Part shown: positions 24,001-45,000 of the stretch, one piece after another
How positions within the stretch are numbered: the first letter of the stretch is position 1
Layout of the letters: each line of letters opens with the position of its first letter
Origin: an uncultured Gemmatimonadales bacterium
GTDB lineage: Bacteria > Gemmatimonadota > Gemmatimonadetes > Palauibacterales > Palauibacteraceae
Assembly: GCA_963783385.1 (NCBI GenBank)
Contig: CAWANJ010000001.1
Coordinates: 500,415-564,414, forward strand
DNA: 64,000 nt
Reading direction: 5' to 3'
Made by a program: the position numbers

Positions 24001-27000
24001 TTCGTCCACGGCCAGGGAGGGGTCCGGGTTCCAGACCGGCCCCTCGAGGAGCGAATCCGGGAGGGAGTCCCTCCACACCGGGGCGAGCCGGATGGCTCCC
24101 GAATCGAGAACCGGCGTCGCCGGGCTGCGAACCACCGTGACGCCCCCCACGGTGTCGACCGTGCCCTCCCAGCGGGGTCCCCCGAGCTGGGAGATCATCC
24201 GACACCCCGACGCCACCACCCCGGCCAGCAGGACGAGGATCACGCCCCGGCCCGGAGCTCCCGGCCCTCCGCCCCCGATCACCTCAGTGGTGCCTGCCGT
24301 CCCGGGTCCACACGATGATCGTGGCGCACTGACCGGTGAAGCCACGGTAGACGAACTGCGGTGGCGTCTCCGAGCCGCTGCGGTAAATCTCCATGGCGAG
24401 GATGGCCTCGGGGGACAGGTCGTCGATCGCGAGGTTCGGCATCGGCTGGTTGTTCACCCAGATGAAGGGCGTGCACCAGCGCTGGCCCCGAGGCACCCTG
24501 ATGGAGGTGTGACCGACGGTCGACTCTCCGACCGAGATCCCCGGGAGTCCCCGGAGCAGATCCGCCGATTTGTTGGCGCGCTCTCGCTTCCTGTCGACCT
24601 CTGCCGGCGTCAGGAACACGCCCTGCCGGGAGCGGCGCCGGTTCTCGAACCCCGCCAGCCGGTCGATCGGGAGCATGTGACGCACCGTGACGTGGATGTC
24701 CTCGAGCTGGAGGACCGTCTCGCTGAGCATGAGCGTCGCCGTCGTGACCCGGTTCCCCTGCAGCGAGATGGGCACCGATTGGTTGGCGAAGCCGATGAGC
24801 CGGACGTGCAGCGTGTCGGGGCCCGCCGGCACTCCGGACAGGACGAAGTGGCCCGTGCTGTCCGTGTACGTGCCGACGCCCGCCTGCAGGAGCGAGACCT
24901 GCGCGTTGTGCAGGGGCCCGCCCGTCATGGCCGACACCACCTGCCCGCGAAGCACCGCCGTCGTGTCCTTCTCCGCAGCGGCCCCCTGGGCGACCATGTC
25001 CCTGGCGCCCAGGAAGATCGCGGCAGCCGCCAGGGCCGCGCACAGGAGGTAGCGCCCGGGTCCGGGCCCGGCCCGGACGATCGTCGTTGAGGTGCCCATG
25101 CGTACGCTCATCTCGACTGCCAGGCTCCGGAGGGTCGCGCGGTCCGCGAGGGGGCTCACATCGCCTGCAGCTAATATGGTCCTCGGCTCCTCCGGGTTCC
25201 CTGATGCACGAAGCGGGGATGCCGCCACAAAGGCGACACCCCCGCTCCGGTCCGGGCCGCCCTCCGGCCCCGAGGGGTCGGAGGGCTCACGCCGGCGCTC
25301 AGTCCGCCCGAAGCCCTAGGGCTGCGAGACGTCGCACATGCTGAGCTGGTAATTCGTGTTGTTCTGCTCGTTGAACGCGATCTGGAAAGCCACGTCCGTC
25401 CCGAACGTGCCGCCCTTGTAGTAGGGCCCGGACGGGAACACGTCGGCCTCGTTGCGCCCGTACTGCCGGATGAGCCGGCGCAGGTCGCCGAGCCGGTGGC
25501 CCGTGGCGTACAGCCAGAAGGCGCGCTCCCTGAACATCGTGTCCACGCGAGCAGCCGGAGTCCCTGGATCGGTGATCGCAGGCAGGCTCGTGGCCGTGAC
25601 CTGGTTCGAGAACCCGAAGTCGTTGGGCTCGGGCGGATCGTAGCGCGCCGCGAGCAGGTTCTGAACGTCAGCGCGCAGGGCATTCAGCTTGCTCAGCCAC
25701 GTGCCGGGGTCGCCGTTGTTGAGTGCCGCCTCGGCCTCGATCAGACGGGCCTCGATGCCATCGGCCAGGACCACGTTGGAGCCCTGGAGAGGATAGCGGA
25801 GGCCCACGTACTGCGGAATCGTCTGGTCGAAACCGCCGCTCGGATCCTGCGCCCACGGCACCCGCGGGTCGTTGGCCGACCGGAAGTTCAGGCCATTGCC
25901 GCCCGTACCGTCCGGGTCCGCCACGGCCGTACCCGCCTGACCGTTGGCCACCGAGTAGCGGCCGTTGCTCATCAGGTTGAAGATCGGGTTTTGGTCCGCG
26001 CTCACGGCGGCGTTGTGGTAGATGAGGAAGATGAAGTCGGTCGGCACGGACGACACCGCGGCCGCCGCCCCCGCGTAATCCCCGTTGTCCAGCAGCGCCC
26101 GCGCCTTACCGACCATGGCCAGGTATTTCCGCTGGTTGTCCTTGGCCGCCGAGATGGCGGCGTCGAACGTGTCCGCGGCGGCCGAGAACATCTGGGCCGT
26201 CGTCAGCGGAGTGCCCAGGTCGGTGGGCGCGAAGTTCTCCGTGCTGCTGAAGGGAATGTTGGAGCAGAAATTCTCGCCCATGGCCGTGTAGTCGTAGCCA
26301 ATGTAGCTCTTCAGCTCGCTGATCCGCGGATCAGCGGCCGACGCGTCGGCCATCAGCTTCTGCGCCGACACGGCCGAAGCGCGGGCAATGTGCAGGTTCC
26401 CGTACGCCGCGTCCGTCGTGTTGCCGTTCTGCGGCGTGAACTGGTCCCTCTGGTCGGTGTGCGTCCGGGTGCTGAACGTCCCGGACGAATACATCTCGTC
26501 CGTGAAGTCGGCCACCGTCGAGAGGATCTCGTCATCCAGCCCGTGGCCGCTGTAGGCCTGCTGGAAGTCCGACAGCGCTCCCGCGAACGCCACATCGGGC
26601 GTCAGGTTCGCCGGGGTGGCGCGCTCGGGATCGACCACCTGGAGCGCGTTCCCCTTGCAGGCTCCCGCGACGAGCGGGAGCCCGAGAGCCAGGAGCCAAA
26701 CCATCGGCAACCCGGCCCGGCCGTTATTTCGTGAAAGATATCTCATGGCTCTATCGTCCTCCTGCCTCAGAAGCTCACGTCGACGCGCGCCGTGAAGATC
26801 CGCGGAGCGGGCTGCGTGTTGAACTCACCCTGGTTGAACTGGGTGTTGCCGCCCTGCTCGATGATCTCCGGGTCGATCCCGTTGTAGCCCGTGAACGTAT
26901 GGAGATTCCGGGCCGCCAGCGTCAGGCTCAGGCCCCTCGTGAAGGGCATGGCGCTGGTCAGCGACTGCGGAGCGTTCATGCGGATCGACAGCTCCCGCCA

Positions 27001-42000: not shown

Positions 42001-45000
42001 CGGCCGCCGCGCCGAGCGGCAGCGCGCCGAGGACGAGGGCGGCCAGGCCGGCGACCAGGAGTCGCATGGCTCTGTACGACGAAGTCTGGAGCATCACGGC
42101 ACCTCCCTGGTTGGAGAGGACGCCAGGTGGCGCGTCCCCTTTGTGCCCGGTCCCGCTGGAGCGCGGGACCGTCGGTCTCACGGCGTGAACCCGAGTACGT
42201 GGACGTGTCGAATATTTTGCGTCCGGACCTTAGCGTCGACCCGTCCGGTAGCGACGCGTCGACCCGGCCGGCGCCTCAGGACGCCTCGATCTGCACCCGC
42301 GCGAAGCGCCGCTTCCCCCTCTGGAGCAGATAACGACCGGGCTCGAGCTGAAGATCCCGGTCCGACACCCTCCGCCCATCGACCTGGACGGCGCCCTGGT
42401 CGATCATGCGGAGCGCCTCCGACGTGGAGTCGGCCAGCCCCGCGCGCTGGAGCGCGTAGCCGATCCACAGGGAGGTCTCGCCCTCGTCCGCGCCCAGACG
42501 CTGCACTGGAAGCTCCTCGGGAGCCTCGCCGCGACGGTGCACGCGATCGAACGCGTCACGAGCCGCATCCGCCGCCCCGCTCCCGTGATACTGGGTCACG
42601 AGGTCCGCGGCAAGCCAGCGCTTCGCCGCCAGCGGGTCGCCGGCGGCCTCCTGTAGCCGCCTCCGGAGCGGCTCACCCCCGGCCGATGAGGCCAGGCGCA
42701 GCCACTCCTCGAGCAGCTCGTCCGGGATCGACATGGTCCGGCCGAACATTTCCTCCGGCTCCATGGCGAGTCCCACGTAGTTGTCGTAGGACTTCGACAT
42801 CTTGCGCTCGCCGTCCGTGCCCCGCAGAAGGGGCATGATGAGGCAGACCTGCGGCTCCTGCCCGCACTTCTCCTGGATCGTCCGCCCCAGGAGCAGGTTG
42901 AAGCGCTGGTCGGTGCCGCCCAGCTCGACGTCGGCCCGAAGCTCGACCGAGTCGTAGGCCTGCATCATCGGGTAGAGGAACTCCGACAGCGCGATGGGCC
43001 GGCCGTCGGCGTGACGCCGGGCGAAGTCCTCCCGCTCCAGCATCCGGGCCACGGTGTACATGGAGGTGAGGCGGAGGATGTCGGCGAGACGGAGCGGACC
43101 GAGCCACTCGCCGTTCCGCCGCATCTCGGTGCGCTCGGGGTCGAGGACCAGGGACACCTGCCGTCGGTAGGTGGCCAGGTTGGCCTCGATCTCGGCCTCG
43201 TCGAGCACGGGACGCGTATCGGATCGGCCCGAGGGATCCCCGATGCGAGCCGTATAGTCGCCGATCACGAAGACCACGCGGTGGCCGAGCTCCTGAAAAT
43301 CCCGCAGCTTCCTCAGGGAGACCGCGTGTCCGATGTGGAGATCCGGCCGCGTGGGGTCGAAGCCCTGCTTGATGACGAGTGGCTCGTCGCGCTCACGCGA
43401 GCGCTCGAGCTTGCGCTCGAGCTCGTCCTCGGGGAGGATCGCATCCACCCCGTCCCGAATCCGCTCGAGCTGTTGGGCGACGGGGAGAAACATTCTTCCG
43501 GGAGCCCTGGTATAGTGTGCCTCGTGAACGAGCGAAGCCCGTCCCTGTCCGAGGCCGGCTACCATAGCCGCGGCCACCATCGCGGGCAAGCGAATACCCG
43601 CGTCCGCCGGGCACATCCGTCTCCCGGATCCCTGCGCCCGACCCCGTGAAGCCGGGGGGCCTCCTCCGGCGGTGGTACCGGCGCCTCGGACCACGCGGGC
43701 GCTGGCTCATGCTCACCGCCTTCCTGTCCCTCCTGGGGCTGGGCACGGGCCTGGCCTGGGGCGCCTGGACGCACGTCTGTGATGACTGCCCTTCGATCGC
43801 GCAGATCTATGCGTTCCAGCCCAAGGAGGCGACGCGCGTGTTCGCGGACGATGGGAGCCTCCTGGCGGAGCTGGCCGTGGAGCGGCGCACGGCCGTGGCC
43901 TATCGGGCCCTGCCCTGGTACGTCCCGCAGGCGTTCGTGGCCATCGAGGACAAGCGCTTCTGGCACCACCACGGGATCGACCTGCTGCGCACCCTGCGGG
44001 CCGGGATCGAGTTCGCCCTGCACGGCTACGACGTGGCCGGCGGCAGCACGATCACCCAGCAGCTGGCCGGCAACATGTTCCCGAGCGCCGTCAACCGGCA
44101 GAAGCTATCGATCCGGCGCAAGCTCAAGGAGATGCACGTCGCGCTGGATCTCGAGAGCGCCTACACCAAGCAGGAGATCCTCGGGGCCTACCTGAACCAG
44201 ATCAACTTCGGCCGCGGCCACTACGGGGTGCAGAGCGCCGCCCGCTGGCTGTTCGGCGAGGACGCGCGTGACCTGAACCTCCCCGAGGCGGCGCTCCTGG
44301 CCGCCCTGCCCAAGGCACCCGAGCGCTACTCGCCCATCGAGCATCCCGAGCGGGCTGTCGTACGCCGCAACCTGGTCCTGCAGGAGATGGAGGACCATGG
44401 CATGATCGATCGGGGCACGGCCGAGGCGGCCAAGGCCTATCCCCTTGCCCTCCATAGCGAGACCGAGAACGAGGGGACGGCCCCCTACTTCGTGGAGTGG
44501 GTGCGCCAGCAGCTCATGGACCGCTACGGCCCGCAGATCTACGAGGCGGGCCTCCGGGTGTACACGACCCTCGACCCGGGCCTCCAGAGCGTGGCGGATT
44601 CGGCGCTGCACGCCCAGCTCGACTGGGTCGAGCAGCAGCCCGGCTTCCAGGGCCCCACGTTCCAGGTCACGCGGAGCTGGCCGGAGGAGAAGCTCAACGG
44701 GACCGAGATACCGTACGTCCAGGGGCTATTCATCGCGCTCGACCCGCACACCGGCAACGTCCTGTCTCTCATCGGCGGGCGCGACTTCGACGACTCGGAG
44801 TTCGACCGGGCCACCCAGGCCCTGCGTCAGCCCGGCTCGGTGTTCAAGCCGTTCGTGTACACGGCGGCCATCGCCAGCGGCATCCCGGTCTCGGAGATCT
44901 TCTACGACACGCCCGTCGAGATCGTGCTCCCCGACAGCTCGATCTACTCGCCCAAGGACTTCGGCGGCGACTTCCTCGGGCCCATCACCATGCGCGAGGC

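What the first reader, a model, noticed from the sequence alone, without database searches (positions are those of the whole stretch)
24284..42094. Three tandem SusC/SusD-like (RagA/RagB) outer-membrane uptake pairs with no CAZymes in view
Pair 1 is 26767..29860 + 25316..26746. Pair 2 is 33796..37069 + 32322..33731. Pair 3 is 39014..42094 + 37566..38994. All are on the minus strand. Each SusC carries an N-terminal carboxypeptidase-regulatory-like domain. Each SusD is a lipoprotein. Two sigma70-like promoters with a shared cgcTTGACA -35 element precede SusC1 and SusC2. No glycoside hydrolase, HTCS or ECF-sigma/anti-sigma regulator is encoded between them. This differs from canonical Bacteroidetes PULs. 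It suggests a paralogous uptake array for another substrate class; an M19 dipeptidase lies nearby, so peptides are one possibility.
Basis: partly seen in the sequence, partly recalled or inferred. Interest (0 to 1): 0.6.

Follow-up and report, generated by a model that had tools for sequence, protein, structure and literature searches.

The report
Three orphan SusC/SusD importer pairs
The region really does encode three SusC/SusD-type outer-membrane nutrient importers in a Gemmatimonadota bacterium, with no sugar-degrading enzymes nearby; this arrangement is already known, what they carry is still unknown, and three of the six genes look broken here only because of probable assembly errors.

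Summary
The three SusC/SusD pairs on the minus strand are real. All three SusC proteins pass TIGR04056. SusD2 is a clear PF12771 protein. SusD1 and SusD3 match no Pfam SusD model above cutoff, but the SusD1 model matches only SusD/RagB structures.

In this window SusC1, SusC2 and SusD3 each carry a one-base insertion (29285, 36236, 38004) that breaks the frame. These are absent from at least six other assemblies of the same population (99.9% identity). Two more private insertions lie outside the array, so assembly error is the likely cause.

The organism belongs to Candidatus Palauibacterales (Gemmatimonadota), where susCD genes are already reported.

No CAZyme, HTCS or ECF/anti-sigma gene appears anywhere in the 64 kb. 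Related loci show the same picture: none in three annotated contigs, and no glycoside hydrolase among the top families of 212 neighbour proteins. The M19 dipeptidase is 11 kb and eight unrelated genes away, so it says nothing about substrate.

The pairs are ancient paralogues and the array order is conserved. Barrel-less CarboxypepD_reg+Plug proteins and two lipoproteins also lie in the locus.

Verdict: these are ordinary orphan SusCD importers, a new member of a known kind, with substrate unresolved. Low-to-moderate interest.

The parts
39014..42094 (-). SusC3: intact SusC/RagA-type TonB-dependent transporter, 1026 aa, made of signal peptide, CarboxypepD_reg (NTE), Plug and barrel
   Evidence: TIGR04056 scores 471 bits against a cutoff of 368. 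The TIGR04057 signature scores 42.5 against 46.2, just below cutoff. The same 1026-aa gene is called in L006. The ATG at 42094 follows GGGAGG.
37566..38994 (-). SusD3: divergent SusD-like lipoprotein, 475 aa when intact. In this window an extra base at 38004 breaks the frame.
   Evidence: It shares 29% identity with SusD1 (E 1e-25). It has no Pfam or PDB sequence hit. The GC3 frame switches near 38000. The insertion is absent from L006, where the gene is 475 aa.
33796..37042 (-). SusC2: SusC/RagA-type transporter, 1081 aa when intact. An extra base at 36236 breaks the frame.
   Evidence: The repaired protein scores 500 bits on TIGR04056 and 54.6 on TIGR04057. The insertion is absent from L001-L004, L006 and L007. 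A 1081-aa gene is called in those assemblies.
32322..33731 (-). SusD2: SusD-like_2 family lipoprotein, 469 aa, intact
   Evidence: PF12771 scores 173 bits and PF12741 95 bits. There are twenty SusD/SGBP-type hits in the PDB by sequence, the best being 3sgh at 5.8e-19.
31874..32239 (-). Small lipoprotein ORF (121 aa) downstream of SusD2
   Evidence: It is called in several assemblies and is 95% conserved in L011. It has a lipobox-like LLAC. No family match is on record.
31404..31868 (-). Small lipoprotein ORF (154 aa) downstream of SusD2, conserved after SusD2-type genes in distant relatives
   Evidence: phmmer hits to the ORFs that follow SusD2-type genes in L084, L087 and L093, with E from 1e-7 to 1e-12. 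It has the lipobox LSGC.
30454..31332 (+). Barrel-less CarboxypepD_reg + Plug protein (292 aa), convergent with the pair 2 operon
   Evidence: Pfam CarboxypepD_reg 3e-10 and Plug 1e-8, with no barrel. A family of 250-290-aa homologues exists. The model shows a transthyretin-like N-domain that matches the SusC NTE structure 9hfj among others. A homologue sits in the same position in the Longimicrobiaceae locus L012.
30152..30160 (-). CGCTTGACA motif (a possible -35) 300 nt upstream of the SusC1 ATG
   Evidence: Found and conserved in L011. The -10 is poor (TTAATC or TAATCA). The consensus scan does not call it.
26767..29860 (-). SusC1: SusC/RagA-type transporter, 1030 aa when intact. An extra base at 29285 breaks the frame.
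   Evidence: The repaired protein scores 429 bits on TIGR04056 and 52.0 on TIGR04057. An intact 1030-aa gene is present in L002, L003, L004, L006 and L007. The insertion is private to the window.
25316..26746 (-). SusD1: divergent SusD-fold lipoprotein, 476 aa, intact. It belongs to a very large clade with more than 6000 homologues; the few hits that carry an organism name are Gemmatimonadota.
   Evidence: PF07980 scores only 17.5 bits, below cutoff. There is no PDB hit by sequence or profile apart from TPR proteins. The AF2 model has pLDDT 79 and pTM 0.83. All 48 Foldseek PDB hits with E<=1e-3 are SusD/RagB proteins. The homologue search found 6252 proteins, some named SusD/RagB by JGI.
24284..25099 (-). 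Second barrel-less CarboxypepD_reg + plug-like protein (271 aa), directly downstream of SusD1 on the same strand
   Evidence: Pfam CarbopepD_reg_2 7e-17 and a weak Plug match at 4e-3. It shares about 30% identity with the 292-aa protein. It is called as a 271-aa gene in other assemblies.
37332..37340 (-). CGCTTGACA motif (a possible -35) followed after 18 nt by TATAAC, 298 nt upstream of the SusC2 ATG
   Evidence: Both hexamers are conserved in L011 although the spacer carries substitutions.

Best explanation
**What it is.** The locus encodes three separately organised SusC/SusD-type TonB-dependent outer-membrane import complexes. The host is a Candidatus Palauibacterales (Gemmatimonadota) bacterium.

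**How it most likely works (inferred from solved Bacteroidota SusCD and RagAB complexes).**
- Each SusC is a plugged beta-barrel with an N-terminal carboxypeptidase-regulatory-like (NTE) domain.
- Each is capped by a SusD-like surface lipoprotein that acts as a substrate-binding lid (the 'pedal-bin' mechanism).
- TonB removes the plug so that an oligomeric nutrient enters the periplasm.

**How the pairs relate.**
- Pairs 1 and 3 belong to a very large SusD clade that Pfam does not recognise. The few named members are from Gemmatimonadota.
- Pair 2 is of the SusD-like_2 type and carries two extra lipoprotein genes.
- The pairs are ancient paralogues, not recent duplicates. The array is conserved in a related species.

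**Genomic setting.** The loci are 'orphan': they sit among housekeeping genes, with no CAZymes, no PUL-type regulator and no STN signalling domain. Any extracellular digestion and any regulation must therefore be encoded elsewhere.

**Substrate.** It is not determined. My best guess is:
- pairs 1 and 3: protein-derived oligopeptides or another conserved non-glycan oligomer, p about 0.4;
- pair 2: a glycan, p about 0.5.

**Frame breaks.** The three frame breaks in this window are single-base insertion errors of this assembly. They are not biology.
For: **Shown**
- SusC membership and domain architecture.
- SusD2 family membership.
- SusD fold for the SusD1 model, and SusD1-SusD3 homology.
- Short SusC-to-SusD intergenic gaps of 19-64 nt (from the coordinates).
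- Taxonomy: a 90%-identity cluster member of SusD1 is named Candidatus Palauibacterales by NCBI.
- Paralogue identities of 26-34%, against 44-52% to homologues in other genomes.
- The whole array is conserved in the species representative L011. The order 'pair 2, lipoproteins, convergent plug protein, pair 1' also occurs in L084, L087 and L093. L021 carries the same two pair types in the reverse order.
- No CAZyme or PUL-type regulator is found in the window, in L010, L020 or L021, or among the 25 commonest families of either batch of the 212 neighbour proteins.
- The insertions at 29285, 36236 and 38004 are absent from L001-L004, L006 and L007.
- Further private insertions lie at 54863 and 55283, outside the array. 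That makes 5 insertions and 0 deletions in about 37.6 kb compared.
- Another long contig (L001) carries its own, different indels.

**Inferred**
- The pedal-bin and TonB mechanism (PMC7782687, PMC7618045, bioRxiv 10.1101/755678, listed).
- The substrate guess.
Against: - No transport, binding or expression data exist for these proteins.
- SusD1 and SusD3 fail the Pfam SusD thresholds. Foldseek TM-scores are only about 0.4-0.55.
- SusC3 is just below the TIGR04057 signature cutoff.
- The neighbour census shows only the 25 commonest families per batch, so rare CAZyme neighbours (at most two members per family per batch) cannot be excluded. My ad hoc gene calling is also poor on low-GC loci.
- Without reads, real strain-specific frameshifts cannot be formally excluded.
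Confidence: 0.8

Rival explanations
1. All three pairs import glycans, in the classical PUL role. The matching CAZymes are simply encoded at unlinked sites in this phylum.
For: - SusCD systems are glycan importers in the great majority of characterised cases.
- The closest solved relatives of SusD2 are Bacteroides SusD homologues and glycan-binding SGBPs.
- The top structural match of SusD1 is the levan SusD.
- Two extra lipoproteins follow SusD2, in the position SGBPs occupy in PULs.
- The literature treats Gemmatimonadota susCD genes as PUL markers (PMC10469786; bioRxiv 10.1101/2022.08.12.503676).
Against: - No CAZyme lies within about 20 kb on either side here or at L010, L020 or L021.
- No glycoside hydrolase family is among the top neighbour families at about 70 loci.
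- Palauibacterales are reported to have fewer CAZymes and susCD genes than sister orders.
- The SusD1 clade is unusually conserved for a glycan lid, with 54% mean column identity across 37 diverse members.
Confidence: 0.3
2. The pairs, especially 1 and 3, are RagAB-like importers of protease-generated oligopeptides.
For: - RagAB shows that the SusCD architecture can import peptides (bioRxiv 10.1101/755678). RagB structures are among the fold matches (5cx8, 6sln).
- In L020 a trypsin-like secreted protease, an asparaginase and a PTR2 peptide permease lie immediately upstream of a SusC/SusD1-type pair.
- Putative aminopeptidase (PF10023, 6 members), DPPIV_N (3) and PD40 (4) recur among neighbours, whereas no glycoside hydrolase family does.
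- PULDB notes proteases in susCD loci that lack CAZymes.
Against:
- Most neighbour genes are housekeeping.
- Several peptidase counts come from one conserved block shared by related contigs (L036, L039, L061, L090).
- M23 peptidases are usually cell-wall enzymes.
- There is no specific similarity to RagB beyond the common fold.
Confidence: 0.3
3. The frame breaks are real. In the strain behind this window SusC1, SusC2 and SusD3 are pseudogenes, so the array is decaying.
For: - Three of the five private insertions fall in SusCD genes.
- Two of the five (38004, 54863) are not homopolymer extensions.
Against: - All other assemblies of the population lack them.
- Private insertions also occur in an intergenic site and in an unrelated ORF. 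All five differences are insertions.
- Three of five landing in SusCD genes is what chance would give. SusCD genes make up about 36% of the compared sequence, giving a binomial p of about 0.25 (my calculation).
- Codon bias (GC3) remains fully coding on both sides of each break.
- L001, another long contig, has its own unrelated indels.
Confidence: 0.07

Closest known systems
SusCD glycan importers of Bacteroidota PULs (for example BT1762-63 levan SusCD; PMC7782687, PMC7618045)
   Same: - The SusC architecture is the same: NTE, Plug and barrel, with TIGR04056 passed.
- A SusD-fold lipoprotein is encoded immediately downstream.
- The top structural match of the SusD1 model is the levan SusD (8aa0_B and 6z8i).
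   Different: - There are no CAZymes, SGBP-type annotated proteins, HTCS or ECF/anti-sigma regulators in the locus or window.
- The host is Gemmatimonadota at 70% GC.
- SusD1 and SusD3 are too divergent for the Pfam SusD models.
RagAB oligopeptide importer of Porphyromonas gingivalis (bioRxiv 10.1101/755678; PDB 6sln, 6sli, 5cx8)
   Same: - It is a SusCD-type pair that stands alone without CAZymes.
- It uses the same pedal-bin architecture.
- RagB is among the fold matches of SusD1 (ranks 12, 14 and 33).
   Different: - There is no specific sequence similarity.
- No co-localised protease lies in this window.
- Peptide binding is untested.
ButCD, a conserved non-PUL SusCD of Bacteroides (PMC11467351; PDB 8ypt)
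   Same: - It is a highly conserved SusCD pair outside canonical PULs.
[quoted passage not shown]
- The structure is among the fold matches (rank 26).
   Different: It belongs to a different phylum, no orthology is shown, and no toxin-import role is indicated here.
susCD tandems already catalogued in Gemmatimonadota (PULDB, PMC5753385; Palauibacterales ecogenomics, PMC10469786)
   Same: The phylum and order are the same, and the genes are of the same kind. These are the very genes such surveys count.
   Different: - Those surveys treat susCD genes as PUL markers together with CAZymes.
- This locus and its family members are not flanked by CAZymes.
- Surveys that identify SusD only by its Pfam models (for example 10.1101/2024.06.04.597336) would miss SusD1 and SusD3.

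Membership tests
SusC/RagA TonB-linked outer membrane protein (TIGR04056) | Full-length match to TIGR04056 above the curated cutoff (368.25 bits) | tested here: met
   SusC1 (repaired) 429 bits, SusC2 (repaired) 500 bits, SusC3 471 bits.
SusC/RagA TonB-linked outer membrane protein (TIGR04056) | SusC/RagA signature motif TIGR04057 (cutoff 46.2 bits) | tested here: inconclusive
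   SusC1 scores 52.0 and SusC2 54.6, both above cutoff. SusC3 scores 42.5, just below.
SusC/RagA TonB-linked outer membrane protein (TIGR04056) | N-terminal carboxypeptidase-regulatory-like domain, then Plug, then TonB-dependent barrel, with no STN domain | tested here: met
   Pfam finds PF13715/PF13620, PF07715 and PF00593 in all three proteins. No PF07660 (STN) hit appears at E<=0.01.
SusC/RagA TonB-linked outer membrane protein (TIGR04056) | An intact reading frame in this sequence | tested here: not met
   In the window SusC1 and SusC2 are each split by one extra base. Both are intact in six other assemblies of the same population, so the break is most likely an assembly error.
SusC/RagA TonB-linked outer membrane protein (TIGR04056) | TonB-dependent import of an oligomeric substrate | not testable with these tools
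   This needs genetics or biochemistry.
SusD/RagB lipoprotein | Match to a Pfam SusD family (PF07980, PF14322, PF12741 or PF12771) above the gathering score | tested here: inconclusive
   SusD2 meets it (PF12771 173 bits, PF12741 95.5 bits). SusD1 does not (PF07980 17.5 bits against 23.1). SusD3 has no hit.
SusD/RagB lipoprotein | SusD fold (alpha-helical, TPR-based) | tested here: met
   The SusD1 model has pLDDT 79. All 48 PDB matches with E<=1e-3 are SusD/RagB proteins, with TM 0.4-0.55. SusD3 was not modelled but is homologous to SusD1 (E 1e-25).
SusD/RagB lipoprotein | Lipoprotein signal peptide with a lipidated Cys | tested here: inconclusive
   By inspection only. A Cys follows a hydrophobic N-terminal region in all three (AGAC, FTGC, AVAC). 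C30 is invariant in the SusD1 family. No dedicated predictor was run.
SusD/RagB lipoprotein | Encoded immediately downstream of, and on the same strand as, a SusC gene | tested here: met
   The gaps are 20, 64 and 19 nt (coordinates). A SusC-like gene directly precedes the SusD1-type gene in nearly all of the 80 metagenomic loci that include the upstream region.
Canonical polysaccharide utilisation locus (PULDB sense) | A susCD tandem | tested here: met
   Three tandems are present.
Canonical polysaccharide utilisation locus (PULDB sense) | CAZyme genes (GH, PL or CE) co-localised with the tandem | tested here: not met
   None is found among the ORFs scanned in the 64 kb. None is found in L010, L020 or L021. 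None is among the top families of the 212 neighbour proteins.
Canonical polysaccharide utilisation locus (PULDB sense) | A dedicated regulator (HTCS, SusR, or ECF sigma/anti-sigma with an STN-bearing SusC) | tested here: not met
   No such domains are found in the window.
RagAB-type peptide importer | Genomic or functional link to proteases and peptide catabolism | tested here: inconclusive
   The M19 dipeptidase is unlinked. Some related loci carry a trypsin-like protease and PTR2 permease. Aminopeptidase and DPPIV-type neighbours also occur.
RagAB-type peptide importer | Peptide bound in the SusC/SusD cavity | not testable with these tools
   This needs a structure or mass spectrometry of the purified complex.

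The most novel reading that the evidence does not exclude
Pairs 1 and 3 may represent a phylum-wide, highly conserved SusCD subfamily of Gemmatimonadota that works independently of CAZymes. Its SusD lid is invisible to current Pfam models.

The subfamily might work with a third component, a small barrel-less plug-like protein. This is either a lipoprotein of about 125-160 aa or a CarboxypepD_reg+Plug protein of 250-290 aa. Such a gene follows the SusD gene in at least 30 of 52 loci. Some homologues are fused to a TonB C-terminal domain.

The plug-like protein might engage TonB or SusC in the periplasm, as a decoy, regulator or assembly factor. The system would then import a conserved non-glycan nutrient.
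Probability: 0.15. Interest if true: 0.55.

Novelty: new member of a known kind. Interest (0 to 1): 0.25.

Why it matters
**Practical value**
1. Surveys that count susCD genes as PUL markers in Gemmatimonadota may overstate polysaccharide use, because this large clade of pairs is not linked to CAZymes.
2. Surveys that find SusD only through its Pfam models will miss this clade altogether.
3. The window shows how residual single-base insertions in long-contig assemblies can pass for pseudogenes.

**Biological value**

The substrate of a SusCD clade this widespread and well conserved in an abundant soil and sediment phylum is worth knowing. This locus adds no new principle, however.

Tried and rejected
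- **Programmed frameshifting or phase variation at the three breaks.** Rejected, because the extra bases are simply absent from every other assembly.
- **Insertions targeted at SusCD genes.** Rejected, because two further private insertions lie elsewhere.
- **Sequence and profile searches of SusD1 and SusD3 against the PDB.** These gave nothing except TPR proteins. A fold comparison was needed.
- **Shared leader RNA upstream of SusC1 and SusC2.** The two 300-nt leaders align only at the -35 motif and at the ribosome-binding site GCCACAGGAGGGTG. No Rfam family reaches its gathering threshold apart from rRNA.
- **M19 dipeptidase as a functional partner.** Rejected on distance and on the intervening genes.
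- **CarboxypepD_reg+Plug proteins as obligate SusCD partners.** Weakened, because two distant homologues on long contigs (P0138, P0163) are not next to SusCD genes.
- **Fold search of the CR+Plug model.** It matched only the N-terminal transthyretin-like domain. The plug-like nature of the C-terminal domain therefore rests on Pfam alone.
- **Exact-protein look-ups that found nothing.** The guessed products for SusC3, TyrS, PBP1A and the SDF transporter were not on record. For SusC3 and TyrS, L006 carries products of the same length, so amino-acid differences are the likely reason.

Full report
**What is in the sequence.** The window has about 70% GC, so I identified genes from ORFs together with third-position GC bias.

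On the minus strand, in the direction of transcription, the region reads as follows:
- tyrS (42276..43493);
- SusC3 (39014..42094) and SusD3 (37566..38994);
- SusC2 (33796..37042) and SusD2 (32322..33731);
- two small lipoprotein ORFs (31874..32239 and 31404..31868);
- a convergent plus-strand gene for a CarboxypepD_reg+Plug protein with no barrel (30454..31332);
- SusC1 (26767..29860) and SusD1 (25316..26746);
- a second barrel-less CarboxypepD_reg+plug-like gene (24284..25099);
- a 411-aa protein of unknown function.

Other assemblies of the same organism carry the same gene calls.

**Family assignment.**
- All three SusC proteins have CarbopepD_reg_2, Plug and TonB_dep_Rec_b-barrel, and none has an STN domain.
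- All three exceed the TIGR04056 cutoff, at 429, 500 and 471 bits against 368.
- The TIGR04057 signature is passed by SusC1 and SusC2 and narrowly missed by SusC3.
- SusD2 is an unambiguous SusD-like_2 protein (PF12771, 173 bits). It has 20 SusD/SGBP-type hits in the PDB.
- SusD1 reaches only 17.5 bits on PF07980, below cutoff. SusD3 has no SusD-family hit at all. Neither finds a solved structure by sequence or by profile.
- SusD1 and SusD3 are homologous to each other (29% identity, E 1e-25).
- An AlphaFold model of SusD1, built from 37 homologues, has pLDDT 79 and pTM 0.83. Every one of its 48 significant PDB matches is a SusD or RagB protein.

The 'SusC/SusD pairs' observation is therefore correct.

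**The frame breaks.**
- Codon bias jumps from one frame to another near 29290, 36250 and 38030.
- Removing one base restores full-length proteins of 1030 and 1081 aa.
- Independent assemblies of the same population were aligned. These are two JGI metagenomes, an NCBI MAG, an ENA long contig and two Logan assemblies, all 99.7-99.9% identical. The window carries exactly three extra bases, at 29285, 36236 and 38004, which none of them has. The genes are intact there.
- Across the ATP-synthase region the window has two more private insertions, at 54863 (intergenic) and 55283 (an unrelated ORF), relative to three further assemblies.

That makes five insertions and no deletions in about 37.6 kb compared. 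Three of the five duplicate a neighbouring base. Three of five falling in SusCD genes is what chance would give, since those genes are about 36% of the compared sequence. The other long contig (L001) has its own, different indels.

I conclude that these are consensus errors of this assembly. Only read mapping can prove it.

**Organism and prior knowledge.**
- A member of SusD1's 90%-identity cluster is labelled Candidatus Palauibacterales by NCBI. That order belongs to the Gemmatimonadota.
- More distant homologues are labelled Gemmatimonadaceae, Gemmatimonadota and Longimicrobiaceae.
- susCD tandems outside Bacteroidota, specifically in Gemmatimonadetes, were noted in PULDB. The same paper notes susCD loci without CAZymes that often contain proteases (PMC5753385).
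- The paper that describes Palauibacterales counts susCD genes in this order (PMC10469786).
- Even in Bacteroides fragilis GS077, 16 of 59 susCD loci are not PULs. ButCD is a conserved non-PUL example (PMC11467351).

**Context.** I found no glycoside hydrolase, polysaccharide lyase, HTCS, SusR or ECF/anti-sigma gene among the ORFs scanned across the window.
- The neighbours are housekeeping genes: tyrS, PBP1A, pyrimidine nucleoside phosphorylase, MltG/YceG, 23S and 5S rRNA, ATP synthase, folate and pterin enzymes, acyl-CoA ligases and transporters.
- The M19 dipeptidase exists (13054..14229). It is 11 kb from SusD1 and eight unrelated genes intervene, so it is not evidence for a substrate.

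**Is the absence of CAZymes a family trait?** It appears to be.
- SusD1 has more than 6000 homologues.
- Three homologous loci on long contigs, with precomputed Pfam annotation, show no CAZymes within +/-10 kb.
- I fetched 80 metagenomic loci of the family and called genes. I set aside SusC, SusD and plug-like genes by BLAST.
- I then scanned 212 remaining neighbour proteins against Pfam.
- The commonest families were Plug (15), putative aminopeptidase PF10023 (6), LemA (6), Peptidase_M23 (5), PD40 (4), TPM_phosphatase (4) and DPPIV_N (3).
- No glycoside hydrolase family was among the 25 commonest of either batch. Any GH family therefore has at most two members per batch.
- One locus (L020) has a trypsin-like protease, an asparaginase and a PTR2 peptide permease right next to the pair.

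This leans mildly towards protein-derived substrates for the SusD1 clade, but it is far from proof. Several of the peptidase counts come from one syntenic block shared by related contigs.

**Evolution of the array.**
- SusC1 and SusC3 share 34% identity, and SusC1 and SusC2 share 26%.
- SusD1 and SusD2 show no detectable similarity.
- Homologues in other genomes are closer than the in-array paralogues: 44% for SusC1 and 52% for SusD1 in L010.
- The complete array is conserved in the GTDB species representative L011, which is about 93% identical at the nucleotide level.
- The order 'pair 2, small lipoproteins, convergent plug protein, pair 1' recurs in distant loci where SusD1 identity is only 38-41% (L084, L087, L093). 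L021 carries the same two pair types in the reverse order.

These are therefore old, functionally distinct paralogues kept side by side. They are not a recent tandem amplification.

**Promoters.**
- CGCTTGACA occurs twice, against 0.29 expected. The sites lie 300 and 298 nt upstream of the SusC1 and SusC2 start codons.
- Upstream of SusC2 the motif is followed after 18 nt by TATAAC. Upstream of SusC1 the -10 is poor.
- In L011 the hexamers are conserved while the spacers vary. This gives modest support.
- The consensus scanner reports nothing.
- The two leaders share only the -35 motif and the ribosome-binding site.

The promoters are plausible but unproven.

**Extra components.** Two proteins in the locus consist of a SusC-like N-terminal domain plus a plug-like domain, with no barrel.
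- Small plug-like proteins follow the SusD1-type gene in at least 30 of 52 metagenomic loci with enough downstream sequence. Most are convergent and only 50-150 nt away. The same holds in L010, L020 and L021.
- Some homologues are fused to a TonB C-terminal domain.
- However, two distant homologues on long contigs are not next to SusCD genes. The link is frequent but not obligatory, and the function is unknown.

**Verdict.** The locus is a conserved set of orphan SusCD-type importers in a Palauibacterales bacterium. That is a new member of a known kind, with its substrate unresolved.

Noticed in passing
window 51490..54796 (-): The 23S and 5S rRNA genes are present, but there is no 16S gene and no tRNA gene anywhere in the 64 kb. 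ATP-synthase genes lie directly upstream of the 23S gene. The rRNA genes therefore appear to be unlinked.
   Followed up: partly
window 54863 and 55283: Two further single-base insertions are private to this window relative to three other assemblies. One lies just upstream of the 23S 5' end. The other lies inside a 225-aa ORF downstream of atpC, which it frameshifts.
   Followed up: yes
window 24284..25099 (-) and 30454..31332 (+); L020 11970..12449; L021 11589..11975 and 17689..18153: These are barrel-less plug-like proteins. Some carry a CarboxypepD_reg domain and some are small lipoproteins. They recur next to SusC/SusD pairs in Gemmatimonadota, and the CR+Plug family has two invariant cysteines. 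Some homologues (P0139, P0167, P0177) are fused to TonB_C. Their function is unknown.
   Followed up: partly
window 31404..31868 and 31874..32239 (-): Two small lipoprotein ORFs follow SusD2. The 154-aa one is conserved after SusD2-type genes in distant loci (L084, L087, L093). They may be surface binding proteins of the pair 2 system.
   Followed up: partly
window 37400..37480: An AT-rich stretch of about 80-90 nt lies in a 70% GC genome, between the SusD3 stop codon and the promoter-like motif of SusC2.
   Followed up: no
L020 2425..6226: A PTR2 peptide permease, an asparaginase and a PKD+trypsin secreted protease lie immediately upstream of a SusC/SusD1-type pair. This is the only context seen that directly suggests peptide use.
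   Followed up: no
L001 (ENA contig_37218, 667 kb) at positions matching window 32935, 32180 and 29153: This other long contig of the same population has its own private indels. They split SusD2 and SusC1 there. Indel noise therefore seems general in these long-contig assemblies.
   Followed up: yes
loci L054, L062, L067, L070: A few loci of the SusD1 family have GC as low as 34%, so the clade may extend beyond high-GC Gemmatimonadota. My GC3-based gene caller failed on them.
   Followed up: no
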